In this document: positions 32,279 through 63,400 of the stretch, piece after piece
Layout: every line of letters begins with the position of its first letter
How positions within the stretch are numbered: the first letter of the stretch is position 1
Position numbers and translations under genes: made by a program
Notes under the pieces: model-generated
Databases searched by the model: none
Seen by the model: only the letters and a program-made list of their open reading frames with translations
Told to the model about the DNA's origin: nothing
Source of the DNA: an uncultured Elusimicrobia bacterium
Lineage (GTDB): Bacteria > Elusimicrobiota > Elusimicrobia > UBA1565 > UBA9628
Assembly (NCBI GenBank): GCA_964510095.1
Contig: CAZEAE010000001.1
Span: 1-64,000, forward strand
Reading direction: 5' to 3'
DNA: 64,000 nucleotides

Positions 32279-32313
32279 ACAATAACCGAATAACCGAGGG
32301 CCTGGCACCGGTT
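32279..32313. repeat. Solo diverged copy of the REP-like repeat that flanks the transposase at 47.5 kb
   Basis: caataaccgaataaccgagggcctggcaccggttg vs caataaccgaacaactgtggtgcctggcccc (first 11 nt identical, ~21/31 overall); located in the ftcD-methyltransferase intergenic spacer. Confidence 0.3.
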
Positions 32314-32314
32314 G

Positions 32315-33133
32315 CTAGAAGGGGCGGCGGGCTAGGGCCAGGATGCGGGAGGGCTTGGCGCCGGCGCCCTGCTCGATGAGGCCGCGGCCAAGGGCGACGC
32401 GCTCGAAGCCGGCTTTCTCAAGCGCCGCCTTCAGCCGCGGCCGTGAGTACATCCGCACGAAGGTCCTGGTGCGGCTGGTCCGGCCGTTCGGGGCGATGAT
32501 GAAGCGCTCGGCGATCATCGCCGGGTCTTTGCCTTCGCGCAGCGAGGTCGCCTCCAGCATCCAATAGCCCCGGATGCGGTCCCAATGGCGCGGCGGAAAA
32601 CCGCCGGTGAAGCGCGCCGGGTCTACGACCTCCAGCACCAGCCACCCCCCCGGCTTGAGCGCCCGACGCATGGAGCGCAGGGTCCGTTCGTCGTCGGCGC
32701 GGCTCGGGAAGTAGCCGAAGCTCGTCCAAAGGTTCAAGACGACGTCGTAGGCCTTCTCAAAGCCCAGCCGCCTCATGTCGCCTTGGACGAATCGGACGGC
32801 CAGTTTGGCCCTTTGCGCCCGGCGGCGAGCCTGCTTGAGGTAAGAGGTCGAGTAGTCCAAACCGGTGACGTCATAGCCCGCCGCGGCCAGCGGCACGCTA
32901 TGGCGGCCTACCCCGCATGCGACGTCTAAGACCCGCGCGCCGCGCCCAGCCGGCAAAAGGCGTCTTAACTCCCGGACTTCCAGCTGGGTTGCGTCTATAT
33001 CGATGAGGCTGGCAAGCGGATAGACCCCTTCCCTGAAGAAGCCCTTCCACCAATCCTTCAAGGCCGCACCGCCGGCATCAAGCCAAGCGCGACTGCACCC
33101 ACTCCAAGAACCGCCGAGCGAGCTTCTCCGCAT
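32315..33133 (-). CDS. Class I SAM-dependent methyltransferase
   Basis: Motif I VLDVACGVGRHSVPLAAAGYDVTGLD; start chosen at MRRSS (the ORF extends to 33271 but then overlaps the HEPN gene extensively). Confidence 0.7.
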   Translation of the reverse strand: MRRSSLGGSWSGCSRAWLDAGGAALKDWWKGFFREGVYPLASLIDIDATQLEVRELRRLLPAGRGARVLDVACGVGRHSVPLAAAGYDVTGLDYSTSYLKQARRRAQRAKLAVRFVQGDMRRLGFEKAYDVVLNLWTSFGYFPSRADDERTLRSMRRALKPGGWLVLEVVDPARFTGGFPPRHWDRIRGYWMLEATSLREGKDPAMIAERFIIAPNGRTSRTRTFVRMYSRPRLKAALEKAGFERVALGRGLIEQGAGAKPSRILALARRPF

Positions 33134-33485
33134 CCCTGCCTTCCGCCTCGGTAACTTCCCGATCCTCATAGGCGGAGAGGTTCTTGTATCCCAGCACTTT
33201 CGAAAGAGTCTGTATCTTGGAGCCGAGTTGGTCGTCTTTGATATGCTGCCGCAAGAGGCCGGCAACATCATGATGGGAGTCGCCTATCGATCGGACGCCG
33301 CCATAGTAGACCAAGAGCGCGTCCGCCGCCGAAATCGCCGCATGAACGGCGTTTAAGCCCACGGCGTCCCAATCGCCTATGTTCAAGGCCGACTCCGAGG
33401 CTCGAAGGAATTCCAGCGCCTTCTTAAGATACGTCCCATGGCGCTCGCGAGAGACGGTGCGCGTCTTGAGCTTCTTTGGGGTCAT
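33078..33485 (-). CDS. HEPN domain protein (toxin of HEPN/MNT toxin-antitoxin pair)
   Basis: 135 aa helical; downstream of and overlapping the nucleotidyltransferase gene by 4 nt; ~55% GC. Confidence 0.6.
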   Translation of the reverse strand: MTPKKLKTRTVSRERHGTYLKKALEFLRASESALNIGDWDAVGLNAVHAAISAADALLVYYGGVRSIGDSHHDVAGLLRQHIKDDQLGSKIQTLSKVLGYKNLSAYEDREVTEAEGRDAEKLARRFLEWVQSRLA

Positions 33486-34093
33486 GACAGCAACTCCTTG
33501 ATGTCCTTGCCGTAAATGGTCCGTCCATCCTTAAGAATCTCGCGGATCAGCGGAAGCTTCTGATGGTGTTTGCGCAGCAACTCCGGCAAGGTTTGAATGT
33601 AGTGAGACAGCGGGACGTTGAAGCGCTTGAACAACAGCGCGCTGAGCCGTTCGACGCGCGGCTCCAGAGCTTCCAGGCCTTCCTTTGCGGGAATAACGAC
33701 CAGGAGGTCAAGATCGCTGCCGAGCTGCTCCGTGCCTCGCGCCATGCTGCCAAAAAGCACGATGGCGAGGATATCGGACCCGCGGGAATCGACCAGGGAC
33801 CTCCTAACAACGGCCTCAAGTTGCTTGGGCATGGCCGCTTCTGCCTTAAATAGTAGCGCGAAGACATTCCGGATGAGATAATTGTCGGGATTGATCTTGT
33901 AGAGATGGACGTTTGAGACCCGCCTCAAAAGGACAAGCCCCCGGGCGTCTAGCTTTTTGAGGGTCTCGTGACAGGCGGGCGCGCTCAGGCCGATCTTGCG
34001 CGCGATCTCCCGTCCGCTCCATTCGCCTTGGCTGCGCCAAAGAAACCTCAAAACGCGCGATTGAGCGTCTTCATGAAGAGGAGTGTTAGGCAT
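33482..34093 (-). CDS. Nucleotidyltransferase (MNT/minimal NTase) with N-terminal winged-HTH (antitoxin partner of HEPN)
   Basis: NTase motif LFGSMARGTEQLGSDLDLLVV (GS...DxD); N-terminal wHTH SGREIARKIGLSAPACHETLKKLDARGLV. Confidence 0.75.
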   Translation of the reverse strand: MPNTPLHEDAQSRVLRFLWRSQGEWSGREIARKIGLSAPACHETLKKLDARGLVLLRRVSNVHLYKINPDNYLIRNVFALLFKAEAAMPKQLEAVVRRSLVDSRGSDILAIVLFGSMARGTEQLGSDLDLLVVIPAKEGLEALEPRVERLSALLFKRFNVPLSHYIQTLPELLRKHHQKLPLIREILKDGRTIYGKDIKELLS

Positions 34094-46412: not shown

Positions 46413-47491
46413 GGCGTGCCCTTCTTGGGTTGAGCCTTCATGGGCTTAGCCGCCGGCTTCGGGGAGATCTTGGACTTCGCCGCGGCCCCGGGAGCCGGCT
46501 TGATCTCGACGGGCGGAGGAGGCGGAAGCTTCAGGCGCGCGCGCAGCTGGCTCCTGGAGAAATCGATCACGCTCTTCGTGTTGACGTCCTTTTCCGCCGC
46601 GGAGGCGGCGTCCAGGGCCGCCAGGCCCTGCTTCTCATCGCCCACCATGCCCACGATGGAGGCGGCCTGCTGCCGGCTGTTGGGGTCGCGGGACTTGAGA
46701 GCCTCGAAAGCCGCCGGCAAGCCGGCCGCGTTGCCGAAGCGCGATAAGCCCTGCGCCGCCTCCAGCCGGACCGACGGCTGTGAGTCTTGAAGGGCCGCGG
46801 CCAAGGCCGGCAGGACAGAGGGGTCCGGGAGGGAGCCGAGAGCTCTGACGGCGGCGGCGCGCAAGTCGTTGTCCGGGTCGGCGAGCAAGCCCTGCAGCGC
46901 GGGTATGCTCTCCAGCGCCTGCAGCTGCCCCAGCGCCGCCACGGCGGAACGGCGCAGGCCGGAGTCCTTGTCGGACAAGGCCCGAACCAAGGCGGAAGCC
47001 GCTTTGGGCGCGCGCAGGACCCCCAGGGTCCTCACGGCGGCGTAGCGCACGCCGGGAACCGGATCTCCCACCGCGGCGATCAAGGCATCGGCCGCCGCAG
47101 GGTCGCCGAGGTAGGCCAGCGCAGTCGCCGCGCTCTGGCGGGCCGAAGGCTCTTTATCGGAGGTCAGCATCTTGACTAAGCCCGGCAAGGCCTGGCTGGC
47201 ATGGAGCATGCCGAGCGAATCGGCGGCCATGGAACGCACGAGGGGGTGGGGATCGCTGATCGTCTCAAGCAGGGCTGGGATGGCGTCGCCGCGGCGCAGC
47301 TGGCCTAATTCCTCGGCCCCTTGGCGCCGGAGCATCGGGTTGTCGGACTTAAGCTTTCCCAGCGCCGCCTGGTAGTGGTCGATGGGGGCCGGGGCGGTCG
47401 GGGCAGGCTCAGCCGCGACTACCGTGGAAGGCCGAGGAAGACCGAGGAACAAGAAAAGAAAGAATACCGCCAGGACAGGCCATGGTCGCAT
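46409..47491 (-). CDS. Secreted HEAT-repeat (PBS lyase HEAT-like) protein
   Basis: Signal peptide; at least 7 repeats of the ...ALG.LGD..A...L...L.D.D..VR..A..AL form; Pro/Ala/Lys-rich C-terminal tail; ATGA overlap with the cyclase gene. Confidence 0.7.
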   Translation of the reverse strand: MRPWPVLAVFFLFLFLGLPRPSTVVAAEPAPTAPAPIDHYQAALGKLKSDNPMLRRQGAEELGQLRRGDAIPALLETISDPHPLVRSMAADSLGMLHASQALPGLVKMLTSDKEPSARQSAATALAYLGDPAAADALIAAVGDPVPGVRYAAVRTLGVLRAPKAASALVRALSDKDSGLRRSAVAALGQLQALESIPALQGLLADPDNDLRAAAVRALGSLPDPSVLPALAAALQDSQPSVRLEAAQGLSRFGNAAGLPAAFEALKSRDPNSRQQAASIVGMVGDEKQGLAALDAASAAEKDVNTKSVIDFSRSQLRARLKLPPPPPVEIKPAPGAAAKSKISPKPAAKPMKAQPKKGTP

Positions 47492-47531
47492 CGGCTGATT
47501 CTAGCTTTCCTATATAGTTAAGGTCAACCCC

Positions 47532-47562
47532 GGGGCCAGGCACCACAGTTGTTCGGTTATTG
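47532..47562. repeat. Left 31-bp inverted repeat (ggggccaggcaccacagttgttcggttattg)
   Basis: Perfect reverse complement of 48396-48426. Confidence 0.8.
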
Positions 47563-47609
47563 CTGAAAAGTGGAACAAAATGAGGGGTTCAATCGTATAT
47601 AGATTAGGT

Positions 47610-48401
47610 ATGCCCAGAAAAACCAGGATCGACGCGCCAGGCGCCATAAACCACATCCTCTCCCGCGGCAACGACAAACAAGCCATCTTTAGGGATTCTG
47701 AGGATTTCCTAAAATTCATCCGGCTGCTCGCTCAAACGAAGAAGATGTTCCCATTCCGACTCTACTCCCAATGCCTGATGCCCAACCACTTTCATCTGCT
47801 TACCCAGACGCTTTCACACTCCCCTGCGGTATTCATGCAGCGGCTCTTGACCTGCTATGCCCAATACTTCAACCGCCGGCACGGCCATGTCGGCCATGTG
47901 TTCCAAGGCCGCTACAAGGCATTCCCATGCACCACAGATTCCTATTTCCACTCGCTGAGGAAGTACATCCATAATAATCCAGTCCGAGCCGGATTGGTCT
48001 CCCGCCCCGAAGATTGGCCTTGGTCCGGACATAATCAGATGGCGGACCCTCCAGGATGGGGGTTGATAGACTCATCCTCCGGCCTCCTGTTGTTCGATCA
48101 GAGCCAGACCAGCCACAGAAACGCTATGCCCGAAGAAGACGAGCGTCACGTTTTCACCGACAAGCCTCGGCTGGAAGCTCGCCACAGTCTTCTAGCACAA
48201 CTGGCGCAGCAAGCGGCGGGGCGAACAGGGGTATCGGCAGGAATGATGCTCGGGCCCAGACGCCTACGAAGCCTTACTCCCGCGAGAAAGCTCTTCGCCT
48301 CAATGGCAGCAGCGAACGGCTACAAGGTCGCAGAGGTCGCGTCCTTCCTAAATCGGACAAAAAGCTCGGTATTTAATCTTTGCCGACAGTGTCCCCAATA
48401 A
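47610..48401 (+). CDS. REP-associated tyrosine transposase-like (IS200/Y1_Tnp family) with C-terminal DnaA-C-like HTH
   Basis: HUH motif LMPNHFHLL and catalytic Tyr in HVFQGRYKAF; N-terminus INHILSRGNDKQAIFRDSEDF typical of the Y1_Tnp family; C-terminal helix-turn-helix region. Confidence 0.75.
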   Translation: MPRKTRIDAPGAINHILSRGNDKQAIFRDSEDFLKFIRLLAQTKKMFPFRLYSQCLMPNHFHLLTQTLSHSPAVFMQRLLTCYAQYFNRRHGHVGHVFQGRYKAFPCTTDSYFHSLRKYIHNNPVRAGLVSRPEDWPWSGHNQMADPPGWGLIDSSSGLLLFDQSQTSHRNAMPEEDERHVFTDKPRLEARHSLLAQLAQQAAGRTGVSAGMMLGPRRLRSLTPARKLFASMAAANGYKVAEVASFLNRTKSSVFNLCRQCPQ

Positions 48402-48426
48402 CCGAACAACTGTGGTGCCTGGCCCC
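48396..48426. repeat. Right 31-bp inverted repeat (caataaccgaacaactgtggtgcctggcccc)
   Basis: Reverse complement of 47532-47562; overlaps the transposase stop codon. Confidence 0.8.
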
Positions 48427-48436
48427 GCCCGCCTGC

Positions 48437-51400
48437 TTAGTGGATGACGCCGATCTTGCGGATGACGGTGCTGCTGCCGCCGGGGGACTTGACCTTGATG
48501 CGGGCGATGTAGCCGCCCTTGGAGACGAACATGCCCGCGCCGTTCTTGCCGTCCCAGAGCACGAAGTTGGGGCCGGAGCGGCCGCCTTCACCGCCGGGGG
48601 TGATCGAGATGGTCTTGACGATGTAGCCCATCAGGTCATAGATGGTGATCGTCACGTCGGAGTCGGCGCCCAAGGTATAGGTGATCGTGGTCTTGCCGGC
48701 CGGGCCGCCTTTGCGCGTGTCGAAGGGGTTGGGGTAGTTGCTGACGCCGGCCACGATGACGGAGTTGACGCCCGTGTTGACGCTCGTGGCCAGCGGCGAC
48801 CAGGGAGAGAAGACGCCGGCGGCGCTCAGGGCGCGCACGCGATAGGAGAAGTACTGGCCGGGCGGCCGCGGGCCCTCGCCCGGGAACGCGGGGTCGCCGA
48901 CGCCGTAAGTGGCCTGCTTGCCGTTGACCATCCCCAGCGTGCGCCAGATGACCTGCGCCGAGAGGTCCTTGGCCTCTCCGCCGCGCTCCTGGACCTCATA
49001 GGCGGCGACCCCGGAGTTCGCCTGGAGCGACGCCGCCCAACGCAGGCCGTAGACGGGCTTGCCCTGCTCCAGCGGCTGCGCGGCGCCAGGGACCGAGGGC
49101 GCCGTCGTATCGGGACGGAACATAAGGACCGGCTTGGCGGCCGAGGCGGCGGCGCCGGCAGGCACGAAGCGCGCGAAGATGATGGCGGCGGAATCCGAGA
49201 CCGGCTCGCCGGTCAAATGGGTGATGGCCACCGAGCCATGCAGCCCGCGTCCGTTGCCGGGCGCCGGGTCGCCATCCTGCGCCACGGTGCGCAAGGTGGT
49301 CTTATCGACCTTCTCGACCCGGATGATCTCGCTGCCGACGTAGACGATGCCGGGTAGATTGAGCTTGTTGGCGTCATCGACGATGAGCATCGTCGCATCG
49401 GGGGTCAAGGACACCGTCAGCCGGATCACGTTGGGCACGGGCAGGCTCAGGTTCGGGATCTTGGCGGTCGTGACCGGAGCGCCGGCGGCCAGCGCCCCGA
49501 AGCTCTGGGCGCTCAGCCCCGCGGCGGAGATCAGCGTCACGCTCGACCAGCTGTTGCTATAGGAAGATTGGCTGTCGTAGAACGCGCCGACTGAAACCTC
49601 GTAATAACCGGCCGTCGAGATCACGGGGAGAGAAGCGCTCAATTGACCGCTCTTGCCGCTCCAGGCCGAGGGCACGAAGCCCTGGGAGGGCATCTCGGTG
49701 CCCTTGGCGGGATTGCCCTGATCGGTGAGGTCGTTGCCTAGGAGTATTCGGAAGCCGCCGAAGCCGTTGTCCATGATCATGTCCACGATGCCGTCCGCGT
49801 TGAGGTCCATGTCGAGGACCCCGGTGCCGGTCAGGTCGCGGGAAGGATTGCCGTCGCCGGCCAAGGACACCTGGGTCGCCCGCGTGCTCTCGCCGATCTT
49901 GAAATTGTCGGGGATGCCGTCGCCGTTGATATCGATGAGCGGGCCCTGAGTGATGCAGTTGGCCGTCCAGCTCGAGCCGTCGATGCAGATCCACTTGCTC
50001 TGGTCCGGGATCGGGTTGTTGGCGGCGTCGCGGCAGATGTTCTTCCTCGGGTTGCTGACCGCGGCGCCGGCGCAGCCGGACGGCCTCACCTTGGCGAAGG
50101 CAGGGAACCCGACCGCGATGCCCGGTACGCCGGCCTGCGCCCGAGTCATGATGACCGGAGAAGCTATCTGCTGAGAGCTGATCGAGACCTCGGGGACGCC
50201 CACCAGCTCGATGGTCACCAAGCCGGAGGCCAGCGGCGGACGCTTGGAGGAGTTGGCGGCGGCCGTCAGCGGCGCGCCGTTAGGGCCGATCAAATCCGCG
50301 AACGCCCCGAGCAGGACGCCGATCTTATGCCCCAATGTCGACTGGCTGGCCGCGTCCGTCGAACCGATCACCGGCATGTCGGCGGAGACCAGCAAGGTGA
50401 CGGGAGCGACGCCGACCATCAGATAAGGATTGGCCTGCTCCGTGAGGTTGACGACCAGCGAGCCTCCGGCGAAAGCGCCGGTGCCCAGAAGGACGTCGGT
50501 GTTCGGGGTATCGGTGCTGGGCGTGACGACCCCGTCGCCCTTGTCGAGCCAGATGCTGATGCGGCCCAGGTCCCCGTCGCCCAAGCCGGTGGCGTCGACC
50601 AAGCCGGTGGTCGTGCTGATGATCGTGCCCTGCTGGGTGAGGCGCATGCGCGAGATCAGGACGGTGCTGAGGTTGGTCTGCAGGTCGATCTTGAGCAGCG
50701 GCACGTTGCGCTGGCCTTGCGCCGCGCCCACGGGCGCGATATTGGCGCCGGAGACCGACAGGTCGACGACCGGGGCCCCCGGCGCGACGCGGAAGACCGC
50801 CATCGCGCGCGCCGCCGAGGGATTGCCGCTGATGGGGACGTAGCGCGCGAAGAAGATGGCCGCCGAGTCGGAGACGGGCTCGCCTGCCATATGCACGATC
50901 GGCGCCGAGCCGCGCAGCCCGCGGCCGGTGCCCGGAGGCGGGTCCAGCTCCTGGCCCACGACCCGCAGCAGCGTGCTGCTGAGGCGCTCGGCGCGCAGCA
51001 CCTCGCTGCCGACGTAGATGATGCCCGGCAGGTTCAGCTTGGAGGCGTCATCGACGAAGAACGTCGTGGCGTCGGGGGTCAGAGCCGTGGCCAATCTCGT
51101 GATGTTGGGCACCGGCAGGTCCAGGCCGGTCACCCGGGCGGCCGTCATCGGCGAGCCCGCGGACAAGGAAGAGAACGCTTCGGCCGTCAGCCCGGTGATA
51201 TCGGGAGCCGTGACCGAGGACCAGTTGATGCTGTAGGTCAAAGGCGCGTCGTAGAAGGCGCCGACGGCGACCTCGAAATGGCCGGAGACCGCGACGGCCG
51301 GCAGCAGCATGGCCAACTGGCCGCTCTTGTCCGTCATCGCCGAAGGCGAGAAGCCCTGGTCGGGGACGGGGGTGGCCTTGGCCGCGTTGCCCTGGTCGGT

Positions 51401-54400
51401 GACGTCGTTGCCGAGCATGATCTGGAGGCCGCCGAAGCCGTTGCTGAACACCATGTCGACGATGCCGTCGCCGTTCATATCCATGTCGTAGACGCCCGTG
51501 TTGGTCATATCCCGAGACGGGCTGCCGTCTCCGACCAGGGTGACGCGGGTCGCCATCGTGCTGCCCAGGATGGAGAAGTTGTCGGGGACGCCGTCGCCGT
51601 TGACGTCGATGAGCGGGGGCTTCGTGGGACAGAAGGCCGACCAGGCCCGACCGTCGGCGCAGAGCCACTTGCTGGCGTCGGCCTTCGGGTTGTTGTTGCT
51701 GTCGCGGCAGATGTTGTTGCGCGGATTGCCCGCCGCCCGGCCGTTGTTGCAGTTGACCGCGTCCACCTGCGCGTAGGCCGGGTAGCCCACGGTGACCGAC
51801 GACACATTGAGGCCGGCCCGCGTCAAGATGATCGGGATGCCGGAGGAGCTGATGGAGACCGCCGGCAGGGTCAAAGGCGCGATGCTCACCAGCCGGGATT
51901 CGAACGGCGGGCGGATGACCGGGTCGGGAGCGGCGGCCACCGGCGCGCCGTCGGAACCCAGGAGGTCGGTGAACGCGACCAGCTTGAGCCCCGCCGTGTG
52001 GTCCAGCGTCGACTGCGGGACCTCGTCGAAGAACCCGATATCGGCCGTCACGTAGACCAGCGAGGTCGCCGTCGAGACCCGGAGGTAGGGGATGCCGTTC
52101 TGGGCCAGGCTGACGACGGCCACGCCGTCCGAGAAAGCTCCCCCCGCAGACCATGTGACCGAGCCCAAGAGGACGTCGGTCGTCGGCGTGAAGACCTTGT
52201 CGCCGTTGTCCAGCCAGGCGCTGACCTTGGAGAAGTCCCCGTCGCCGACCTTCGTCGAGACGCCGACGTCCATCGTGCCCAGCTGAGCGAAGCGGATCTT
52301 GGAGACGTTGACGAAGTCGGAGTTCACCTTCATCGTCATCTGCAGGATGGGCACGTTCTGCGCGCCTTGGCCGGCGCCGGCCGGCGCGATCGTGAACCCC
52401 GCCACCGCCAGGTTGATCGGATTGATGGCGATGTTGGTGCCGACGAACGGATACGACGTCGTGCCGGTGCCCAGGGTATTGGACCGCGTCACCCCGGTGC
52501 GCACCGAAGGCTGGACGTTGTCGCCGCGCGGCATGACGATCCAGGAAGGGTCTCGGATGACCAGCGAGACCAGGTCGTTCTGGATGGCGGCGTCTCCGAT
52601 GTCGTAGGCCACGAAGAAGGCTTGCGCCGACGGGCCTATGAACTGGTCGTTCTTCAGCGTGATGAGCGACTGGACGTTGGCGTCGTTGGTCTGGTCGTAG
52701 ACGTCGACCTTCTTGACGTTGCGGCCGACCGGGATATCGAGGGTGGGCGTCGGGCTCGTGCCCAAGCGGTCGCCGCGCGAGGTGATCCACAGGCAGGGCA
52801 GGCCGGTGTTGCGGCTGAGCGTGGGCGTGGCCGGGTCCGAGCAGCCGCCGGCCGCGAACGTCATCAACTCGGCTCCATGCACGAAGACGCGCCCGCCGAT
52901 CGCACTGCCGTCGGTGTCGGTCGGGAAGCCCGCCGTGGAGACGACGACCATGCCGAAGGGCGGAGCCGAGGTGATCGACACCGCCACGGCCAGCGACGTG
53001 TTGACCTGGGAGATGTCCACATCCTCGAGCCCGAGGACGTCGTCCTGGTTGATGTCCTTGAAGATCCGGATGAATTTGACGTCCGTGTTGCGGCCCAGGG
53101 GCTTGGCCGGGTCCTGCGAGCCGCCGCCGCGCTCCAGGCGCAAGGCGCGCCAAGGGGCCAGCGCGATGTTGGTGGCCATATTGAAGCGCAGGAACGGCAC
53201 GTTGGTCTGGGCCTGGGTGACGCCGGGGATCTCGGAGGCCACGTTGTTGACGCCGAGGGTCACTTGCGAGATGACCTTCTTGACGGTCACCAGGGGATTG
53301 CTCTGGAAGGTCGGCGTCGTGAAGATCACGACGTTGGGCACCTGGATCGTGAAATAGGCCGGCCCCGCGATCTGCACGCCGGTCTGGGCGTTCTCGGCCG
53401 CGAACTCGGAGATGTCGTAGGTGACGAAATAATCGGCCGGCACCGTGCTGACCAGGATCGGCTGGCGCAGGGTGATGTTGACCGTCCCCGAGCTATAGGT
53501 CTCGTTGCCGAAGGAGAGCAGGTTGGGCGTCAAGCCGGCGCCGGTCCGGGTGGAATCCACGGCGTCGAACACGCCGTTGGAGTTGGCGTCCCGCCAAACC
53601 TTCATGAGCTTGACGTCGCTGTCGAGGCCGTTGGCGCCCATGCGGTCCAGGCGGAGCTTCTGCACGATGGCCGAGTTGCGGTCCGTGCTCAGCCGCAGGC
53701 GCACCATCGGGACGTTGATATCGTTCTGCAGGGCGCTGTTGCCCGAGATCTGGTCGAACTCGGCCCTGATCGTGTTGAGCGTCGGCGTCACCACGTAGGT
53801 GGGCGCCGCCACCGGCGCCTGGAAGATGGTCACGTGACCGGCGTTGGCCGGGGTCAAGAGGAACTTGGCCCCGTCGGTGACGGCCGCGCCGAAGACCTCG
53901 TTGGGAGGCGTCAACGTGATATGAGAGAACTTGGCCGACGGCGAGACGTCGAGGGCCACGTAGTAGGTCTTGGTCGAGGAGGTGATCAGCGCATACCCCG
54001 GCCGGCCCAGCGTCGGGTCGTCGATGGGGATGGTCGTGCGGCCGTCGGTGTCCGGCGGCACGCCGAAGCGGTTGGAGCCCATGACGTAGTCGCTCAGGTT
54101 GAAGCCCGTATCCGGGTCGCGGTGGAAGACCCCGTCGGGCGTGGCCGACTTGTAGATCGTCACGACATCGACGTCGGAGTCCTCGCCGTTGAGGCCGGCG
54201 GGCAGGGTGCGGTTGAGCTTGAGTCCGCTCAGCTGGATCTGGAAGTTGCCCGACCACAGCTCCAGCTTCATCATGGCCAGGTTCCGCTCGCCTTGGGCGA
54301 TCTGCGGGCCGATGACCGTGCCGGTGGAGTGCGCCGTCGGGATGCTGTTGAGCTCTCCGCGCCGGACGTTCTGCAGCAAGGGCAGGGTCGGATGGAAGCC

Positions 54401-57400
54401 CGTATAGCTGATGATCTCGCCGTCGATCATGGCGTAGGTCGTGGCGCCGACGAGCGGGATGGGCAGGCCCTGGGTCGAGCTCAGCACCCAGAAAGAGTCC
54501 ACGGCGCCGACGGGCTGGCTCGACACGGAGGCGCCGGCCGGGTCGAGCAGGGGCGCCGGGAAGGTCCCGCTGGAGTTGCTGAACATCGGCGTCGACCTGA
54601 CGTACAGTATCTGGGGCGAGGCGATGATGGCCCGGAGCTTGGAGACGAAGGGCACCGGCGAGGCCGGGTTGAAGACGTTGGGCAGGGTCAGCGAGTTCTG
54701 CAGCGGGTCGTCGGTGACCGAGCTCAAGGTCGGCAAGGAGGTGTTGAGGATCTGCACGCCCACCGTGCGCGGCTTGGCCGTCACTGGGTCGACCGGCAGG
54801 GCCGTCGGCGACATATGATAGGCGACGAAGTAGCGCTGGGGCTGGGAGGCGCCCGCGGCCGTGACGATCTTGCGCTTGGGATAGAGGTTGACCTGCGCCA
54901 CCAAAGGCAGGCCGGAGTAGTTGCCGAAGGTGCCCGTGCCGACCAGGACGTCGCCGGAGGCCGGGTTGAAGATGGCATCGCCGCTGGCGTCGTACCACAG
55001 CGAGACCATGTCGACGTCTCCGGCCATGCTGCCCTGCGCCGCCGCGGTGCCGGTGGCGTAGAAGAGCATCCAGCGCCAGCCGGAGTCGGCGATGTCGGTG
55101 TCCAGCGTGAAGACGCCGACCGCCACGGTGCTGAGCTGCTGGACGAACGGCCCCAGCGAGCCGTCGATGGTGTCGGAGGAGATCACGCGCACCAGGTCCT
55201 TGACCTCGGCCACGTTCGAGATGAACGACACCGTGCGCCCGCCGTTGACGGCGGGGATGCCGATGTTGAGCGTCGACATGGACTTAGGGGCCTTGACCTG
55301 CAGATACGTGGTGTTGGCGATGATCATGCCGAGGTTGGCCGCCGGCGACACCGAGGCGAAGGCGTCGATATCATAGGCGATGAAGTAGTCCTGCTTCTCC
55401 GTCGTGAGGATCTGGCCGCCGCCGCCGATGAGGCCGACGACCGGGATGCGGGCCGAGCCGGAGAGCACCGTGCCGGTGGCGAAATCTAGGCCGATGGTGC
55501 CCTCCTGGGCCCGGTAGCAGTCGTTGTAGGTGTTGGAGGCCAGATCGACCGAGTAGCACCTGACGACCTCCTTCTTCGTCTCGTCGGCCGTGTCGTCGCC
55601 CAGCACCAGCCGCTGCTGCGGGTCGCCGGAGAACGGGTTGTCGGCGGGATAAAGGGAGAGGATGCTGTTGACCGCGATGCTGACCGGCGTCAGGCTGCTG
55701 ACCCCCACCGAGCTCAAGGGGTCGCGCAGCGTGGTCTGAGGGAAGTTATGGATCGTCGCGTTGAACGGGCTGACCTGCGTGTCGCTGGAGACGTTGAGCA
55801 GGCCGTTGCCGTCCATATCCCGCCAGATGCGGATGTTCGTGACGTCGGCGGCCTTGTTGTTCAAGGCGAAGAGCGGGTCGTAGAGCCCCGTGCCGCTGTT
55901 GAGCGTCGAGGCCATCCAGCGGTCGAGCTTGACGCCCGTCCACTCGGCGGAGCCGGTGTCCACCTTCATCGTCAGCTTGGCCACGGGCTTGTTCTTATCG
56001 TTCTGCGAGATCTTCGAGGGGATGGCGTCGATGGGATCGAGGTTGGCGTCCAAACCCTGGCGGTTGACGTCGGAGAGCTTGACCAGGTCGGGCGTGGCGA
56101 TGATGATCGTCTGCGTGGACGCCACCGGGGAGAACGAGTTCACCGTGCCGTTGCCGAGCAAGGGGATGACGTCCGACTGCGTCACGATCGCGCCGTGGGT
56201 CTGCCCGGATTCCGCGGCCGCGTCGAAATCGTAGGCGACGAAATAGGTGCGGGTCGAAGCGCCGATCGTGCCGTTGGAGCCGCTCGGGTTGGCGATCGCC
56301 AGCGTCACGGTGCGCTCCTCGCCCTCCGGAAAGGACGCCGAGGCCACCAGCTTGTCGATGGAGAACTCGAAGACGCCGTTGCCCGGAGGGCTCTGGTTGG
56401 CCTGCGTGTCCTGGAAGAGCTTGACCAGCTTGATGTGCCGGTCGAGGCCGCTGCCGGTATGCGTGATGCGCAGGCGGCTCAAGACGGCCGTGAACACGTC
56501 GGTCCACATGTCGAACTTCATGATGCCGACGTTGGCCTCGCCTTGGTTGATATAGGAATAGGTCGACAAGGACAAGGCCGGCGGCTGCCAGAAAGCGTTG
56601 ATGTCGGTGCCCTTGACGTTGATGGCGGCGGGCTCGCGCTGCACCGACGAGGTCGCCGTGCGCACGCCGAAGTTGTTGAGGCCGACGGCCACCGCGCTGC
56701 CGGTCGACAGCGTGATGTAGGAGGGGTTGGTCAGCTCCAGGCCGAAGCTGGCCGGCAGCTCGCCGACGGCGTAGCCGCTGGAGGAGACGCGCACGGTGAT
56801 GAAGAAGAAGGACGGCAGCTGGCCCAGGGTGCTCTCCGTAGGCTTGGCTTGCTCGATGCGCTCCTGGCCGAAGAAGGGGTTGCCGAAGAACCAGGCGCCG
56901 TCGGCCGCGCTGTAGGCGCCGCTGGCGAGGAACACGTCGACGGCGGCGTCGAAGCGTCCGTTGGGCGTGGTCGGGTTGTCCCGGTAGATGGCCACTTCCG
57001 TGATATGGCTGTTGTTGAGGTTGCCCTCCACCCGGCTGTTGATGCGCATCTGCGACAACTGGGCGGGCAAGGCGGGGCTGGGCGCGCCCGGCGTCACCTG
57101 CATCGCCATGCGCAGCATGGGGATGGGGTCGGGCGAGGACGCCACGTTGCCGTCGCCCTGGTTAAGCACCTTCTTGGTCACGCCGAAGGCCACCTTGACC
57201 GGCGGGATCGGGCCGTCGGGCGGCGGCGTGGACTCCGGCGAGAAATCGCTCGGGGTCACGACGACGCCGGCCAGGTTGACGTCGCCGTCGGAGCGCTTGG
57301 ACGGGTCGGCGGGCAGCCCGATCCGGCCGACGTCGTTGGTAAAGCCGGTCATGGCCATGTTGCTGTAATCGGTGACCCCGATCTTGAGGACCTCCTGGAC

Positions 57401-60400
57401 CAGATCGACCAAGCGCATGTTGTTGAACGACCCCTGCTCGGCCGGCGTGAAGATATGATAGGTGGTGTTGGCGATGGTGTCGCGCAGGCTGACGGTGGCC
57501 GTCGAGCCCGAGCTTTGGAAGTTCACCTGGCTGGTATAGTACTGGCCGTTGACGGGGTCGCCCTTGGCGATGTTGCCGAAAAGGTCGCGCGCCGTGATGC
57601 CGACCTGATCGGCGCCGATCAGCCGGGTCAGCGTGCCGGGCTGCGTGACCTTCAGCGGGTTGCCTTCCGAGAACTGATGGTGGATCGTGAGATAGGTCGC
57701 CTTGGCGGAGGTGATCGTCTCATCCTGGAAGATCGTCGTGAAGACGAAAGCGCTGTTGAGCTGGGCCCGAGCGGAGATCGTCACGGTGCCGGCGATGGTG
57801 TCCCAGAAGTAGAACGGCGCCTGGCTCAGGCCGGAGCCGCCGGGGATGTCGATGTCGATCTGCGTGCCCGGGGTGATGTTGTTCCAAGCCGCCGAGGGCG
57901 CGGTGCCCACGATGACGGCCGTCGGGTCGATGCCGGCGTAGGTGGAGTTGCGAGACGAGTTGTAGCGGATGATGTAGGTCTCCGTCGAGGTGGTCGTGTT
58001 GCCGAACTGGTCCATCAAGCGCGCGGCGACGACGGTGCCGGTCGGCACGCCGAGGTTGTATTCGATGGTCGTGCCGGCGATCAGGCGGCGCGACGGCGTG
58101 CCCCAGCCGATCTGGGCGGGAGGGCCGGCCGTGACCGAGTAGGAGGAAACGCCCGGGTCCCAGACGGGATAGGTCACGCCGGTGACGGTCAGCTGGAACG
58201 TCGGGTTCGACAGGAGGGTGTCGATCATGTAGAAGCTGGTGGCCGACTGGCCGACGGAGATATAGGCGTTGACGGGAGCGGTCATGAAGTTGCCGGTGGC
58301 AGGCGTGGAGAAGCGGACGTTGCCGGAGGAGTTGGTGTCCAGCCGGAAGGCCACCACGCCCTCGCCCAAGTCCTGACCGGGGCGCAGGGGCGAGGGGTTG
58401 CCGTAGAAATCCCGCGTCTCCAGCGAGAAGGCCTGGGAGGTAGCGCCCGCCAGCAAGGTTTGGCCGGAGCCGGTCGAGAAGGCGATGCGGTCGATGACGT
58501 CGGCGATCACGGTCACCGACTGGCTGGCGGGGAAAAGGCCGGGCACGGAGATGTTGATGACGGGCTTGGTGCCGCCTCCGGCGGCGTATTGCGTGGAAGC
58601 GGTGGTGTCCATGTAGTAGAAGGTCGCTTGATAGGCGTCCAGCGGCACGGTCAGGGTCTTCGTCGAGTAGGTGAAGAACGGGGCACCGAAGCGCGAGCCG
58701 GGAGAGACGTAGGGGGCGGAAGAGAAGCCCACGAAGTCGTTGAGCAGCGTGCTCTGGCGCGTGATGGTGGTGAGCGTGACGACGTAGGTCTGGGTAGCCA
58801 CCGTGGGGTTGTTGAACTGGTCCTGGAGCTGCGCCCGGAAGACGGCCGGCGCGTTGGCGAAATCGACGATCTTGCCCGCCACCTCGGAGTTCTGCGCGTT
58901 GGCGAAGTTGACCTTGTTGGTGATGTTGGGGTCCATGCGAAGGTCATGGGAGGCCAGCAGGGTGCCGCCGATCCAGCCCTGGATCGTCCAGCGTCCGGGG
59001 CGGCCGCTCTCCGCCGTATTGGACGACGGCGAAACGCCTGAATAGGAGCTGAAGCGATCATGGTAGCGGAACGTCGTCTCCGCGCCGGTGAAGCCGTCGA
59101 AGATCGTGTAGCCGGTGATGAAGTTGTTGTTGCCGGAGTCGCGGAAGCCGTAGTCGCCGGTGTTGCCGAAGACCCCCAGCGCGTAGCCTCGGGCGGTATG
59201 GACGGCCGTCTGCGCGACCTTAAGGAGCACCGAGGTGTCGCCTTGGCGCGTGATGTTGTCAAAATCGTCATGGCGCTCGATGACGTAGGCGCCGCCGGCG
59301 GCGGCCACCTCGTTGATGCCGGCGGTGGCCGCCGTAGGCGTCGAGATGAAGAGCAGGCGGGTCGGCAGGCCGCCCACCGTCACGAAGGCGCCGGAGATGT
59401 TCTTCGCCGCGTTGATGTAGCCCTGCAGGGCGGTCGGGTCGGTGGGAGCCGAGATCGTGCCGATCCAGACCCGCGCCGTGTCGCTGCTGGCCTTGGTGCC
59501 GACGAAGTAGGAGAGCAGCGTGCCCAAGCCGACCTTGCCGGCGGCGTCGGTGACGACCTGGGTGGAGCCGCCGACGAGCAGCCAGCCGGCGCCCGTGTCC
59601 CAGGCCAACTGGCCCGGTGCGCCGGTGACGGCGACGCGCTGGACCTGGACGGCCTGCGAGTTGGTGATCGGGTTGTCGAAGGCATCCGTCAGCTGGCCGG
59701 AGAATTGGATCATGCCGGGGTTGTTGGGGACCAGGGAGCCGGCCGAGATCAGCTGGTCGGCGCTGGGCGTGACCTTCACGGAATCGGGCGCGGCCGGGGA
59801 GATGACGACGAAGGGCTTGACCGCGGGGGCCACGCTGCTGGTGATGCCCTGCAAGACCGAGTCGTAAGCCTCGATCCAGCGGCTGCCCACCTTCTTGAGC
59901 TTGACCATGTTGATCAGGTTCTTGACGCCTTGGTCCGTCACGGACGAGAAGGCCACGCTCGTCGGCGTGAACTCCGGGTCCTGGTTGCCGCCGAACATCT
60001 CGGCCAGGAACTGCACCGTGCCCCGGTAGGCGTTGGGGCCCGTCGACAGGATGTTGTCGAACTGGTCGAGCGCGCTCAAGTCGACCGTGATGAAGGAGCC
60101 GGCCGTCGTGCTGGCGGCGACGTTATAGAGGCGGAAGTGATGGAGCGGACCGGGCAGGACCCAGAGCGGGGCCGAGGTCCCCGAGCGGTAATCGACCACC
60201 GGGGCGAGCCCCGTCGAAGCGACGATGGTGTAGGTCGAGATGGCCGCTCGCGGCGTGACCGAGAAGGAGCGCTTGCCCAGGAACAAGCTCTGGCTGGCCG
60301 GAGGCGTCGCGAAAGGGTCGCCGGGCAGCGTGATGTAGACCGCCGGCATCACGGCCGGAGGGTTGGTGTCCTGCAGCGGATTGCCCACGCCGATGTCGGT

Positions 60401-63400
60401 GCAGACGTTGTAGTAGGAGTCGACCAGGTTGACCCCCGCCAGGAACGACGTCTGCGGCGAGGTCATCGCGAAGGGCGTGGGGATGCCGGTCTTGCCGAAG
60501 CCGGGCTCGGACGTCTCCCCCGGCAGAAGCACCTGCAGAGCCACCGCGGAGGAAGCATAGACCTTGAACTGGGGGCTCGTCGCGGCCTGCGCGTGGCAGG
60601 TGTTGGTGGTCGGCGGGCTGTCCTGGCAGATCGGGTCGTTGACGAAAAGGCTGGCCGAGATGACCGCCGACGTCGTCTTGCGCAGGAGCTTGAAGTCGGT
60701 GATCGCCAGGGTCCCGGCCGCGCTCAGCGCGACGTCGGTGAAGCTCGGCGCGTAGGGATCGTTGCTCGTCACGTTGATGCCCGGGCAGCCCGGCGAGCAG
60801 GTCGGCGCGGCCAAGTTCATGAAGCGGTCCACGAAGTTGACCGTCACCGTGAAGGTCGAGCCCGCCGTGCCCGTCGAGATCGAACCGGTCAGGCCCCCGT
60901 AAGGCGGGCCGCTCAGGTAGTTGCCCGAGCCCGGTTGGGCGGTCTGTCCGGGCAGGAGCATCTGCAGGCCCACCGGCTCGGCGGCGGCCACCGTGAAAGT
61001 CGATGAAAGGATGTCGTCGAACAAGCCGGTGGCGTTGAAGTCCAAAGCCTGCAGGAAGTGGTCCGTCGCCGCCCGCCGCAGCACCGCCGTGAAGGCCGGC
61101 GTGAAGCCCAACGATGTGTCGATAGCCACCGTCGTGATCGACGCGGCGAAGGCGTCGGTGAACGCGACGAGCTTGACCTCGGCCACGCACTTCGGGTTGG
61201 CGGGGCAGTCCTTGACCAGGTTGAAGAAGTCGTCGACGACGCCCACGCGCAGGTCGGGCACGATGCCCGAGCCCACCTGGCTGCCCAGCGCCGTGCCGGC
61301 CTTCTGCGAGACGGCGACCCCGGACTTGCCGGTGGGCGAGCCCTGGCTGAAATCCTCGCCGGGGAGCTTGACCAGCAAGCGCGTCGGCAGGCCGGCGGCG
61401 ATGGTGATCACGCTGCTGGTGTCCTTGGTCACGGCGTAGACCCAAGGGGAGACGATGCCGGGATTGACCGTCTCGGCGAAGAACTTCGACGTGCCGGCCC
61501 GCTTCATGTAGACGGTGTAGGTCGCAGACGTCGTGACGACCTGCGTCGTGGGCACGATGACGGCGAAGGGGTCGTCGGAGGTCAGGCGGATCTCCTGGCT
61601 CGCCCCGGGCGTGAGGTTGAAGTAGGAGTCGGCGATGTCGACGATGACGGGGAAGGAGAACACGGGCCCGGCCTGGGTATTGAAAGCCGCGCCGGTGCGG
61701 CCGGTGGTCGTGACGACGGACCCGGGGCTGCGGGTCTCCGTCGGCAGCAGCACGCGCAGATGGTTCGGGCTGCCGGGCACCAGCGGGAAGACCTTGGCCG
61801 GAGACGCCGTCAGGTTGGGCGCCGAGCCGTCGAGGTCGGTGGCCGTCAGCGTGGGGAACCCGGCGGAGATCAGGTTGACGTTCTTGATGGTGGCGCTGCC
61901 GTTGGCCATGGCGAAGCTGCCGACCAAGCCCACCGGCGGCCCGAGCAAGGTCGCGTCGCTGGAAACGACGCGGATGGCGGTCTGGCTCACGGTGGGCACC
62001 CAGTTGTACTGGCTGTCGACGGCGTAGGCGCCGGCGTCGAACAAAACGCCCGCGGTCTGCGTCGAGGCGTTGCCGCTGACGCCCTGGGGGGCCGTCGTCT
62101 TGCCGGCCACCAGGGTTTCCCCCGGCATCACGGTCAAGAGCTTGACCGGGGCGCCCGGCACGACCGAGATGCTCGCCGTGGTCTGCGAAGCCAGCGGGGG
62201 CCCGATGATATCGCTGTCGGTGACGGTCACCGTCAGGTTCGCCGTCGCCGCGCTGACGATGAAGCCTCCGAAGTCCCTAGTGCCGGCCGACAAGATGGCC
62301 GGCGCCGGCATCGTCGCGTAGATGTCGTTGCTCGTCAGCGCCACGTTGCGTCCGTCGTTCGCCAGGTTGTTATAAAGGTCGACGGCGTTGACCGTGACGG
62401 TGTACGGGGTGCCCGCCACCAGCGGGCCCGGGGTCGCCGCGGTCTTGCCGGTGGGGCTGCCCTCCAAGGCCGTCTCGGGAGGCACCAGCAGCTGCAGGCC
62501 GATGGCGCTGTTCGGGCCGACGGCGATGCCTGCGACCGTGTCCGAATAGAAGGTCGTGCCCGCCAAGGCGTTGACGACCTTGACCTGGAAGGAGCCGTTG
62601 CGCGTGACCGGGATGACGCTGAAGTTCGTCGTGCCGGCGACCAAGGCCTTCTGATACAGAGCCGGCGCCAGGCCCCGCAGCTGGATGTTCGTGTCGTTGG
62701 GGAAGCGCATCTCGATGGCCGCCGTATAAGAGGAGACCGGCAGGACGGTCTGGGGCAGGAACGGCGTCGTGCCTTTGACGACGTTGAAGTAGCGGTCGAC
62801 CAGGTTGACCGTGATCTGCGTCGTCACGCCTGCCGTCAGCGCCGACGGCAGGTCCGCGGCGCGGCCGCCCGTGGTGGGGTCCTGGTCGTAGGGCTGGGCG
62901 CCGGGGGAGGCCTTCTGCCCGGCGGCCAGCACCTGGAGCTTCTCGGGCCGCGACCACCAGACCGTCACCGGGTTGGGGGTGATATAGGTCGAGGTCAAAG
63001 CCGGCAGGCTGGCGCTCTGCACGATGACGTTGTGCGTCGACGCCGTCACCGGGACGAAGAAGAAGCGAGTCGTGCCGCCGACCAGGTTGAGCGCGGCGGG
63101 GTTGACGTCGTTGGGGTCCGAGAAGACGTTGCCCGTGACGAGCATGCCGGCGGAGGTGTCGGTGTTATAGTACTGGTCGACGCCGACGACGGTGACCGTC
63201 GTGATGGACCCGGCCTGGAAATCCATCGCGGCCGGCGTCGTCTTGCCCGCGGGCGCGGCGGTCTTGCCCTGCACGCGCGTCTCACCGGGGAACAGGGCCA
63301 GCAGACGGTCGGCCGGCTGGCCGGTCACGGTGATCACGGAGGACGGGTTGGATTCGTTCAAGGCATAGTTGTCGACCTGGGCCTTGCGCGCCCCGTCGAC

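What the first reader, a model, noticed from the sequence alone, without database searches (positions are those of the whole stretch)
47532..48426. HUH/Y1 transposase flanked by perfect 31-bp inverted repeats (REPtron-like), plus a diverged solo repeat at 32279-32313
IS200/IS605 elements lack terminal inverted repeats, whereas REP-associated tyrosine transposases are flanked by inverted REP sequences. This element has a RAYT-like protein (HUH + single Tyr) with a C-terminal HTH, ~52% GC, and 31-bp perfect IRs. A related 35-nt sequence sits alone in the ftcD-methyltransferase spacer. That suggests a dispersed REP-like family mobilised by this protein, possibly an undescribed REP class for this lineage.
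Basis: partly seen in the sequence, partly recalled or inferred. Interest (0 to 1): 0.5.

Follow-up and report, generated by a model that had tools for sequence, protein, structure and literature searches.

The report
Tyrosine transposase gene with inverted-repeat ends
This is a small gene for a RAYT-like HUH/tyrosine DNA-cutting enzyme, bracketed by perfect 32-bp inverted repeats; it belongs to a kind already described in 2013 ("TIRtron"/TIRYT), here in a groundwater Elusimicrobiota genome, and single copies of its end-repeat are scattered elsewhere.

Summary
A perfect 32-bp inverted repeat (47531-47562 / 48396-48427) brackets a 263-aa ORF with an HUH/Tyr core and a C-terminal DnaA-domain-IV-like HTH. 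The element has lower GC than its flanks (0.55 vs 0.67-0.69).

The arms are not hairpins and carry no GTAG, so they are not REPs. This is a TIRtron encoding a TIRYT (Di Nocera 2013), which Quentin 2018 place in TnpA-Y1 subclass 2.1.

In 80 related loci from many phyla, 50 of 75 testable genes carry the same architecture:
- the outer end of the repeat reads GGGGTCAGGYCTT (here GGGGCCAGGCACC);
- the right arm overlaps the stop codon;
- extra repeat copies often lie nearby.

The "diverged solo repeat" at 32280-32311 is an exact (31/31) copy of the repeat of a sister element. That element sits at the same locus in a related strain: flanks about 97% identical, element about 70%. A solo copy of the window's own repeat (33/33) lies on another contig from the same aquifer.

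The "REPtron-like, dispersed repeat" reading is therefore broadly right. The kind is already described, the repeat is not a REP, and genome-wide copy number could not be measured. How the repeats are cut and moved is inferred, not shown.

The parts
47531..47562 (.). Left terminal inverted repeat, CGGGGCCAGGCACCACAGTTGTTCGGTTATTG. The outer end carries a G-rich motif, GGGGCCAG. The inner part holds two tandem 8-mers, CAGTTGTT and CGGTTATT.
   Evidence: perfect 32-nt inverted repeat, none in shuffles; no hairpin in a single arm; the homologous position in relatives reads GGGGTCAGGYCTT.
47610..48401 (+). TIRYT gene (263 aa; an in-frame upstream ATG at 47580 would give 273 aa). HUH/Y1 core at residues ~13-145, low-confidence linker at 166-183, DnaA-domain-IV-like HTH at 185-259.
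48162..48386 (+). Part of the gene that encodes the C-terminal helix-turn-helix domain (residues 185-259).
   Evidence: helices 185-206, 210-213, 220-235, 240-247 and 251-259, block-mean pLDDT 92-97 over residues 191-260; 1J1V, rmsd 1.9 A over 68 columns; weak profile hits to DnaA, E 0.2-0.4.
48396..48427 (.). Right terminal inverted repeat. It overlaps the last sense codon (CAA) and the stop codon of the gene.
   Evidence: In most relatives the right arm overlaps the 3' end of the ORF by 3-27 nt.
32280..32311 (+). Solo repeat unit of the sister (L002) type, CAATAACCGAATAACCGAGGGCCTGGCACCGG. It sits between the methyltransferase stop (32315) and the ftcD start (32250), and its inner end faces ftcD.
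   Evidence: 31/31 identity to the L002 right arm and 34/36 to the left arm; identities of the neighbouring genes.

Best explanation
The 897-bp unit at 47531-48427 is a TIRtron. It consists of one gene for a TIR-associated tyrosine transposase (TIRYT) bracketed by its own 32-bp terminal inverted repeats. A TIRYT is a RAYT-like HUH/Y1 single-strand DNA nuclease-ligase fused through a flexible linker to a DnaA-domain-IV-like HTH.

Proposed mechanism (inferred, not shown here). The protein recognises its repeat unit: the catalytic domain acts at or next to the conserved G-rich outer end, and the HTH holds the protein on the repeat. It then cuts and rejoins one DNA strand through Tyr119. This copies or moves the 31-33-nt repeat unit to new intergenic sites, by analogy with RAYTs and REPs. 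The gene-carrying unit itself stays at about one copy per genome and is only rarely transferred or replaced as a whole.

The confidence given (0.8) is for the identification as a TIRtron/TIRYT; the mechanistic steps alone would rate about 0.4.
For: Shown here:
- The perfect inverted repeat and the gene.
- An HUH/Y1 core closest to E. coli TnpA_REP.
- A C-terminal DnaA-IV-like HTH.
- The same architecture in 50 of 75 testable relatives from many phyla, each with an IR score of 17 or more; the highest shuffle score at any locus was 16.5. The outer end reads GGGGTCAGGYCTT or GGGGACGT, and the right arm overlaps the ORF end.
- The outer motif co-varies with the catalytic domain (Mantel r 0.56, p<=0.0005).
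- The inner part is enriched in a tandem direct repeat of period 7-9: 16 of 50 arms, against 2.2+-1.4 in shuffles.
- Isolated repeat units whose ends coincide with those of the terminal repeats: window 32280-32311 for the sister type, and L097 527-559 for the window type, 33/33 identical with no Y1 gene on that contig.
- About 27 further copies of 17 nt or more within 2.5 kb of relatives in 16 loci. They include arrays (L077) and inverted pairs (L062, L052).
- 78 of the 80 loci come from different assemblies, and the one assembly with two loci holds dissimilar copies.

Literature:
- Di Nocera 2013 defines TIRtrons/TIRYTs with a GGGGWSAS motif, 3' overlap, and moderately abundant TIR families occurring single, as dimers or in groups.
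- Quentin 2018 describe subclass 2.1.2 with Bac_DnaA_C/HTH_23/HTH_28 tails.
Against: - No biochemical or genetic test of any TIRYT turned up. A search of the held library (open-access PMC and bioRxiv) for the terms TIRYT/TIRtron returned only the two papers above.
- Binding, cleavage site and strand are all inferred.
- A single arm has no hairpin, whereas known Y1 enzymes (IS608, ISDra2, TnpA_REP) recognise hairpins. The analogy may therefore fail at the recognition step.
- Co-variation between the HTH domain and the inner repeat was not detected (partial Mantel r 0.03, p 0.28).
- The outer motif here is GGGGCCAG, one base off the published GGGGWSAS.
- Only one solo copy of each repeat type was found. 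The source genome is absent from the searchable collections (0 hits), so real copy number is unknown.
- No target-site duplication or empty site was found.
Confidence: 0.8

Rival explanations
1. An autonomous insertion sequence. The whole 897-bp unit moves end to end as a minimal transposon, and the solo repeats are by-products or remnants.
For: - GC 0.55 against 0.67-0.69 in the flanks, and GC3 0.64 against 0.83-0.93, suggest foreign origin.
- In the related strain on L002, divergence is confined to the stretch from repeat to repeat while the flanks stay ~97% identical. This is what replacement or re-insertion of a whole unit would give.
- The repeat is perfect, 32/32.
- The family has a patchy distribution across phyla, and a few relatives are on plasmids (22 of 72,556 records; one 24-kb Pseudomonas plasmid has 3 places).
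Against: - 78 of 80 loci come from different assemblies, the two loci from the one shared assembly are dissimilar, and only one pair among all 80 loci shares DNA similarity (87.6%, between different assemblies).
- P0033 sits in the same context in all 9 places shown (14 contigs read).
- No target duplication was seen.
- Both solo units have boundaries that match the repeat at the inner and the outer end. Deletion remnants would rarely show that.
Confidence: 0.25
2. A domesticated DNA-binding protein with no mobility role. The HTH binds the repeat as an operator, and the solo units next to gene starts are regulatory sites.
For: - The solo unit in the window ends 29 nt before the ftcD start codon.
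- The left arm ends 4 nt from a promoter-like TTGACC-18-TAGAAT for the HEAT-repeat gene.
- The gene is single-copy, as with domesticated RAYTs (Bertels 2017).
Against: - All catalytic residues (HUH, Tyr) are invariant across 32 diverse homologues, so nuclease chemistry is under selection.
- The L097 solo lies just after a stop codon.
- Arrays and inverted pairs of units near relatives look like REP/BIME-type proliferation rather than operators.
Confidence: 0.1
3. A classical REPtron: a RAYT flanked by inverted REP hairpins of a new REP class.
For: - The protein is RAYT-like.
- The flanking units are in inverted orientation and occur elsewhere as single units.
- Some relatives really are flanked by palindromic units (L037, L091).
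Against: - The arms do not fold (z -0.6 to +0.9).
- They carry no GTAG tag.
- The NCBIfam REP_Tyr_transpos score of 72.6 is below the cutoff of 80.
- Density is one solo unit per 64 kb.
Confidence: 0.05
4. The repeats are the ends of an unrelated DDE-type element or MITE that happens to enclose a Y1 gene.
For: 32-bp terminal inverted repeats are typical of DDE insertion sequences.
Against: - The gene-repeat association holds in 50 of 75 distant relatives, with repeat sequences that change along with the protein.
- No other ORF lies in the 897 bp.
- There is no target duplication.
Confidence: 0.02

Closest known systems
TIRtrons encoding TIRYTs (Di Nocera, De Gregorio, Rocco 2013, BMC Genomics 14:522)
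   Same: - A RAYT-like HUH/Tyr gene flanked by long terminal inverted repeats instead of REPs.
- A G-rich motif at the outer end of the repeat.
- The downstream repeat overlaps the gene's 3' end.
- Repeat units also occur elsewhere as single, paired or grouped copies.
   Different: - The host phylum: this member is in Elusimicrobiota, which is not mentioned in the passages of the paper read here (its list of 26 examples was not seen).
- The outer motif is GGGGCCAG (GGTGCCAG in the sister element), where the published consensus is GGGGWSAS.
- Only one solo copy of each type was seen here.
TnpA-Y1 subclass 2.1, subgroup 2.1.2 (Quentin, Siguier, Chandler, Fichant 2018, BMC Genomics 19:475)
   Same: - The core HUH/Y1 domain.
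- The serine motif after the catalytic Tyr (WPWSGH).
- A C-terminal Bac_DnaA_C/HTH_23-like helix-turn-helix.
   Different: - Placement in their classification was not computed here.
- Those authors reported finding no REP-like sequences near subclass 2.1 genes.
REPtrons: RAYT/TnpA_REP with REP/BIME or REPIN (Nunvar 2010; Bertels and Rainey 2011; Ton-Hoang 2012; structure 4ER8)
   Same: - Best structural and sequence match of the catalytic domain.
- A single-copy gene flanked by inverted copies of a short unit that is also dispersed in intergenic DNA.
   Different: - The unit is not a palindrome and has no GTAG.
- The protein carries an extra HTH domain.
- Copy number appears low.
IS200/IS605 insertion sequences (IS608, ISDra2)
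   Same: - The HUH/Y1 fold (Foldseek E 1e-5 to 1e-4).
- No target-site duplication.
   Different: - Those elements have subterminal hairpins and no terminal inverted repeats.
- They are multi-copy.
- Their transposase is ~130-150 aa with no HTH.

Membership tests
TIRtron / TIRYT (Di Nocera 2013) | Gene encodes a RAYT-like protein with an HUH motif and a single catalytic Tyr | tested here: met
   Pfam Y1_Tnp 1.8e-11. H60, H62 and Y119 invariant. 4ER8 is the best hit by sequence profile (5.9e-8) and by fold (1.1e-8).
TIRtron / TIRYT (Di Nocera 2013) | Gene flanked by long terminal inverted repeats that are not REP hairpins | tested here: met
   Perfect 32-nt inverted repeat. Single arms fold no better than shuffles. 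No GTAG in the arm (read).
TIRtron / TIRYT (Di Nocera 2013) | GGGGWSAS motif in the repeat (frequent in the family, not universal according to the paper) | tested here: inconclusive
   The arm reads GGGGCCAG, which is 7 of 8 with C at the W position. The sister element reads GGTGCCAG. Relatives read GGGGTCAG, GGGGACGT or GGTGTCAG at the same place.
TIRtron / TIRYT (Di Nocera 2013) | Repeat units also present elsewhere in the genome (reported for some TIRtrons only) | tested here: inconclusive
   One solo unit of the sister type is in the window. One solo unit of the window type is on another contig from the same aquifer. The genome itself could not be searched.
TnpA-Y1 subclass 2.1.2 (Quentin 2018) | C-terminal extension related to Bac_DnaA_C / HTH_23 / HTH_28 | tested here: met
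   The model's C-terminal domain matches 1J1V at rmsd 1.9 A over 68 columns. 14 hits among 32 homologues: HTH_23 in 8, Bac_DnaA_C in 6. This protein alone gives no Pfam HTH hit at E<=0.1.
TnpA-Y1 subclass 2.1.2 (Quentin 2018) | Conserved serine motif shortly after the catalytic Tyr | tested here: met
   W136, W138, S139 and H141 (WPWSGH) are at least 90% conserved in alignment A1.
TnpA-Y1 subclass 2.1.2 (Quentin 2018) | Clusters with subclass 2.1 in the authors' MCL/phylogenetic classification | not tested
REPtron / RAYT (Nunvar 2010; Bertels and Rainey 2011) | Flanking units are REPs: short imperfect palindromes with a GTAG (or similar) tag | tested here: not met
   Folding z-scores run from -0.6 to +0.9 on both strands of both arms and of the solo unit. 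No GTAG.
REPtron / RAYT (Nunvar 2010; Bertels and Rainey 2011) | Protein passes NCBIfam NF047646 (REP-associated tyrosine transposase, equivalog) | tested here: not met
   72.6 bits against a cutoff of 80.
REPtron / RAYT (Nunvar 2010; Bertels and Rainey 2011) | Units highly abundant in the genome (typically >100 copies) | not testable with these tools
   The source genome is not in the collections. In the 64-kb window there is one solo unit.
IS200/IS605 | Subterminal hairpins, no terminal inverted repeats, several identical copies per genome | tested here: not met
   Terminal inverted repeats are present and hairpins absent. No second copy in the window. 78 of the 80 loci come from different assemblies, and the two from one assembly are dissimilar.

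The most novel reading that the evidence does not exclude
In this aquifer population, one chromosomal site holds alternative TIRtron alleles. Their catalytic domains are ~70% identical and their HTH domains barely alignable, and their repeat sequences differ, while the flanks are ~97% identical. Each genome also carries solo units of the other allele's repeat. This would mean that TIRtrons are swapped or re-targeted to one site, and that protein and repeat change specificity together, leaving successive 'generations' of repeat units in the genome.
Probability: 0.2. Interest if true: 0.5.

Novelty: new member of a known kind. Interest (0 to 1): 0.3.

Why it matters
TIRYTs are widespread: at least 572 relatives in one genome per species and 1,566 protein clusters. 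I found no experimental study of them, and only two papers in the held library use the name.

This locus adds three things:
- A member in Elusimicrobiota.
- A broader survey showing that the inverted-repeat architecture and its GGGGTCAGGYCTT end are the rule in this family.
- A natural pair of alleles at one site, each with a matching solo repeat.

The allele pair gives a concrete system for asking how an HUH enzyme can use non-hairpin repeats, and whether the DnaA-like domain sets specificity. It does not change what is known about the kind of element.

Tried and rejected
- Hairpin potential of each arm and of the solo unit, both strands: none. The REP reading was dropped.
- Target-site duplication or a conserved target next to the ends, in 58 elements: none seen. 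The inverted repeat often includes one base before the G run, and degenerate partial copies of the G-rich motif often lie just outside.
- DNA pattern scan of one genome per species for both repeat types: 0 hits, so no genome-wide count was possible. The same scan of metagenome contigs gave one hit.
- Empty-site search through contigs carrying the identical HEAT-repeat or ftcD proteins: only the same arrangement, or short contigs that start at or inside the repeat.
- Co-variation of the HTH domain with the inner tandem repeats: not detected (partial Mantel r 0.03, p 0.28). Distances are near saturation, so this is weak evidence either way.
- Similarity of the inner repeats to the DnaA box TTATCCACA: at best 5 of 9 by eye. 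Not pursued.
- Rfam and tRNA scans of the window: nothing.
- DDE-element capture: rejected, because the gene-repeat association is conserved across distant relatives.
- Walking further along the 257-kb source contig: not possible, since only proteins encoded in the window may be looked up.

Full report
**What is in the sequence.**
- The window holds a perfect 32-nt inverted repeat at 47531-47562 and 48396-48427, with 833 nt between the arms.
- No match to the 32-mer with up to three mismatches occurred in 100 shuffles of the window.
- Between the arms there is a single long ORF on the + strand, 47580-48401. All homologues begin at the residue that corresponds to the ATG at 47610, so the product is most likely 263 aa.
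- The stop codon lies inside the right arm.
- The element has GC 0.55 against 0.67-0.69 in the flanking genes. Its third-codon-position GC is 0.64 against 0.83-0.93.
- It sits between the stop codon of a giant minus-strand gene (48437) and a promoter-like site for the minus-strand HEAT-repeat gene, TTGACC-18-TAGAAT at 47527-47498.
- The source is a 257-kb contig from Hainich groundwater. NCBI files the same protein under an Elusimicrobiota MAG.

**The protein.**
- Pfam gives Y1_Tnp at E 1.8e-11.
- NCBIfam's only hit is the REP-associated tyrosine transposase model, at 72.6 bits against a cutoff of 80.
- In an alignment of 32 diverse homologues, the HUH histidines (H60, H62) and Y119 are invariant, and a WPWSGH motif follows the catalytic Tyr.
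- A profile of that alignment finds E. coli TnpA_REP (4ER8, E 5.9e-8) and no IS200/IS608/ISDra2 chain at E<=10. It also gives weak hits to DnaA domain IV at profile positions 210-288.
- The AlphaFold model (mean pLDDT 87.6) has three parts: an HUH/Y1 core to about residue 145, a low-confidence linker at 166-183, and a helical domain at 185-259.
- Foldseek ranks 4ER8 first (1.1e-8) and IS200-type transposases at 1e-5 to 1e-4. It matches the C-terminal domain to DnaA domain IV bound to a DnaA box (1J1V) at rmsd 1.9 A over 68 columns.
- Of the 32 homologues, 8 hit HTH_23 and 6 hit Bac_DnaA_C.

**The arms are not REPs.** Neither arm, on either strand, folds better than shuffled sequence, and neither does the solo unit (z from -0.6 to +0.9). 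There is no GTAG.

**The repeats belong to the gene family.**
- I fetched the DNA around homologues. A 59%-identical protein (L002), a Candidatus Liberimonas magnetica protein (L012, perfect 30-nt repeat) and others are flanked by inverted repeats as well.
- A scan of one genome per species gave at least 572 relatives, of which 80 loci from many phyla were kept.
- Of 75 loci with a complete ORF and enough flank, 50 have a flanking inverted repeat scoring 17 or more; the highest shuffle score at any locus was 16.5. Six or seven more have a weaker repeat with the same motif.
- Laid side by side, the arms start with GGGGTCAGGYCTT (less often GGGGACGT or GGTGTCAG). The left arm mostly ends about 20-80 nt before the start codon. 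The right arm usually overlaps the last 3-27 nt of the ORF.
- The window's arm, CGGGGCCAGGCACC..., is a variant of this.
- Across 50 elements, the outer 11 nt change together with the catalytic domain (Mantel r 0.56, p<=0.0005, also after controlling for the C-terminal domain).
- The inner part of the arms is enriched in a tandem direct repeat of period 7-9. 16 of 50 arms have a perfect 5-mer repeated at that spacing, against 2.2+-1.4 (maximum 8) in shuffles. In the window these are CAGTTGTT and CGGTTATT.
- I expected the inner repeats to co-vary with the HTH domain. They do not detectably (partial r 0.03, p 0.28), although both distances are close to saturation.

**Dispersal of the repeat unit.**
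- The unit at 32280-32311 matches the resident arm at 27 of 32 positions with one gap. It is identical over 31 nt to the right arm of the L002 element.
- A pattern scan of metagenome contigs found one more locus, L097, from a third well of the same aquifer. It is a solo unit identical over 33 nt to the window's right end (48394-48426). It lies just after a stop codon, with no Y1 gene on the 1,079-bp contig.
- In both solo units, identity starts and stops at the boundaries of the terminal repeat. This fits copying of a discrete unit better than decay of a whole element.
- Around relatives, about 27 extra copies of 17 nt or more occur within 2.5 kb in 16 of 58 loci. They include an array of nine (L077) and inverted pairs (L062, L052).
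- Short Logan contigs start three bases inside the solo unit (L099, L100) or inside the left arm (L095, L096). A sequence repeated in those samples would produce such breaks, but this is only indirect evidence.
- The source genome is not in the genome collection (0 hits), so the copy number per genome is unknown. In the 64-kb window there is one solo unit.

**A sister allele at the same site.**
- L002 turned out to be the same locus in a related population. Its flanks align to the HEAT-repeat gene and to the giant gene's 3' end at about 92-100% per 60-nt block on the left, apart from a 27-nt indel in the HEAT-repeat gene's 5' end, and 82-100% on the right.
- From repeat to repeat, identity falls to about 65-78% in the catalytic half, and to about 50% or unalignable in the HTH half.
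- The two alleles share the innermost 9-mer of the arm (CGGTTATTG) but differ in the second 8-mer and in the outer motif (GGGGCCAGG against GGTGCCAGG).
- L002 also has partial copies of its outer motif just outside both arms.
- Both alleles have low GC (0.55 and 0.54).
- Whether this reflects replacement of a whole unit, re-insertion at a preferred site, or fast divergence cannot be decided from a 2-kb contig.

**Comparison with what is known.**
- Di Nocera et al. 2013 (PMC3733652) describe RAYT-like genes flanked by long terminal inverted repeats instead of REPs, and named them TIRtrons and TIRYTs. They report a shared GGGGWSAS motif, overlap of the repeats with gene ends, and moderately abundant repeat families occurring as single, dimeric or grouped units.
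- Quentin et al. 2018 (PMC6006769) place 20 of those 26 proteins in TnpA-Y1 subclass 2.1. They describe the Bac_DnaA_C/HTH_23/HTH_28 tails of subgroup 2.1.2, and note that the repeat consensus does not look like a DnaA box.
- The element here meets the defining features of a TIRtron. It fails two features of a classical REPtron (palindromic REP; NCBIfam cutoff) and those of IS200/IS605.
- Bertels et al. 2017 describe a large, widely distributed RAYT Group 1 with moderately frequent flanking 16-mers. That group may be the same clade, but I did not test this.
- A search of the held library (open-access PMC and bioRxiv) for the terms TIRYT/TIRtron returned only the two papers named above, and I found no experimental work on these proteins.

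**How it most likely works.**
- Shown: the domain make-up, the conserved gene-repeat architecture, the co-variation of outer motif and catalytic domain, and the existence of isolated units with exact boundaries.
- Inferred: the protein binds its own repeat, nicks and rejoins one strand at or beside the G-rich end through Tyr119, and thereby spreads the 31-33-nt unit, as proposed for RAYTs and REPs. The gene-carrying unit stays near one copy per genome.
- The open problem is recognition. Known Y1 enzymes read hairpins, and these arms have none. The HTH domain, the tandem half-sites, or pairing between the two arms on single-stranded DNA are possible substitutes, and none has been tested.
- Rivals are kept at lower weight: whole-unit transposition like an insertion sequence, a purely regulatory domesticated protein, a true REPtron, and capture by a DDE element.

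**Verdict.** This is a new member of a known kind, with some added detail on the family and an interesting allele pair.

Noticed in passing
window 48437-63994 (- strand), running off the window end: A giant ORF, 5,185 aa inside the window. The contig's own gene call gives a 12,696-aa product with no Pfam family on record. It ends 10 nt from the right arm of the element.
   Followed up: no
window 47498-47527 (- strand): A promoter-like site, TTGACC-18-TAGAAT (10 of 12), lies 4 nt outside the left arm and 7 nt upstream of the HEAT-repeat gene start at 47491. The element is therefore inserted directly upstream of the -35 box.
   Followed up: partly
L002 790-800 and 1648-1660; also the flanks of L020, L038, L039, L041, L053, L069, L071, L076: Degenerate partial copies of the G-rich outer motif often lie just outside the terminal repeats. 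In L002, CGGTGCCAGAA sits in tandem with CGGTGCCAGG. They may be footprints of repeated cutting and rejoining, or of earlier units.
   Followed up: partly
window 47428-47487 compared with L002: A 27-nt indel in the 5' end of the HEAT-repeat gene (the signal-peptide-like region) distinguishes the two strains. Otherwise they are ~97% identical there.
   Followed up: no
window 33078-34093 (- strand): A HEPN-domain ORF (135 aa) and a nucleotidyltransferase ORF with a MarR-like N-terminus (203 aa) overlap by 4 nt. This looks like a HEPN/MNT toxin-antitoxin pair, just upstream of the methyltransferase gene.
   Followed up: no
L095, L096 (starts) and L099, L100 (starts): Independent short-read assemblies break at or inside the left arm and 3 nt inside the solo unit. 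A 31-mer repeated in those samples would produce such breaks.
   Followed up: partly
L037 2306-2398 and 3081-3174; L091 570-659 and 1794-1883; L077 176-1046: Some relatives are flanked by something other than one simple repeat. L037 (Rossellomorea) has four palindromic units (TGTACCWGGTACA) on each side. L091 has 90-nt arms that each contain an inverted pair. L077 has an array of nine units. These look like intermediates between TIRtrons and REPtrons.
   Followed up: partly
plasmid NZ_CP116719.1 (Pseudomonas aeruginosa, 24 kb), hit H8: Three places matching the catalytic domain on one small plasmid. This is the only multi-copy case seen among the plasmid hits.
   Followed up: no
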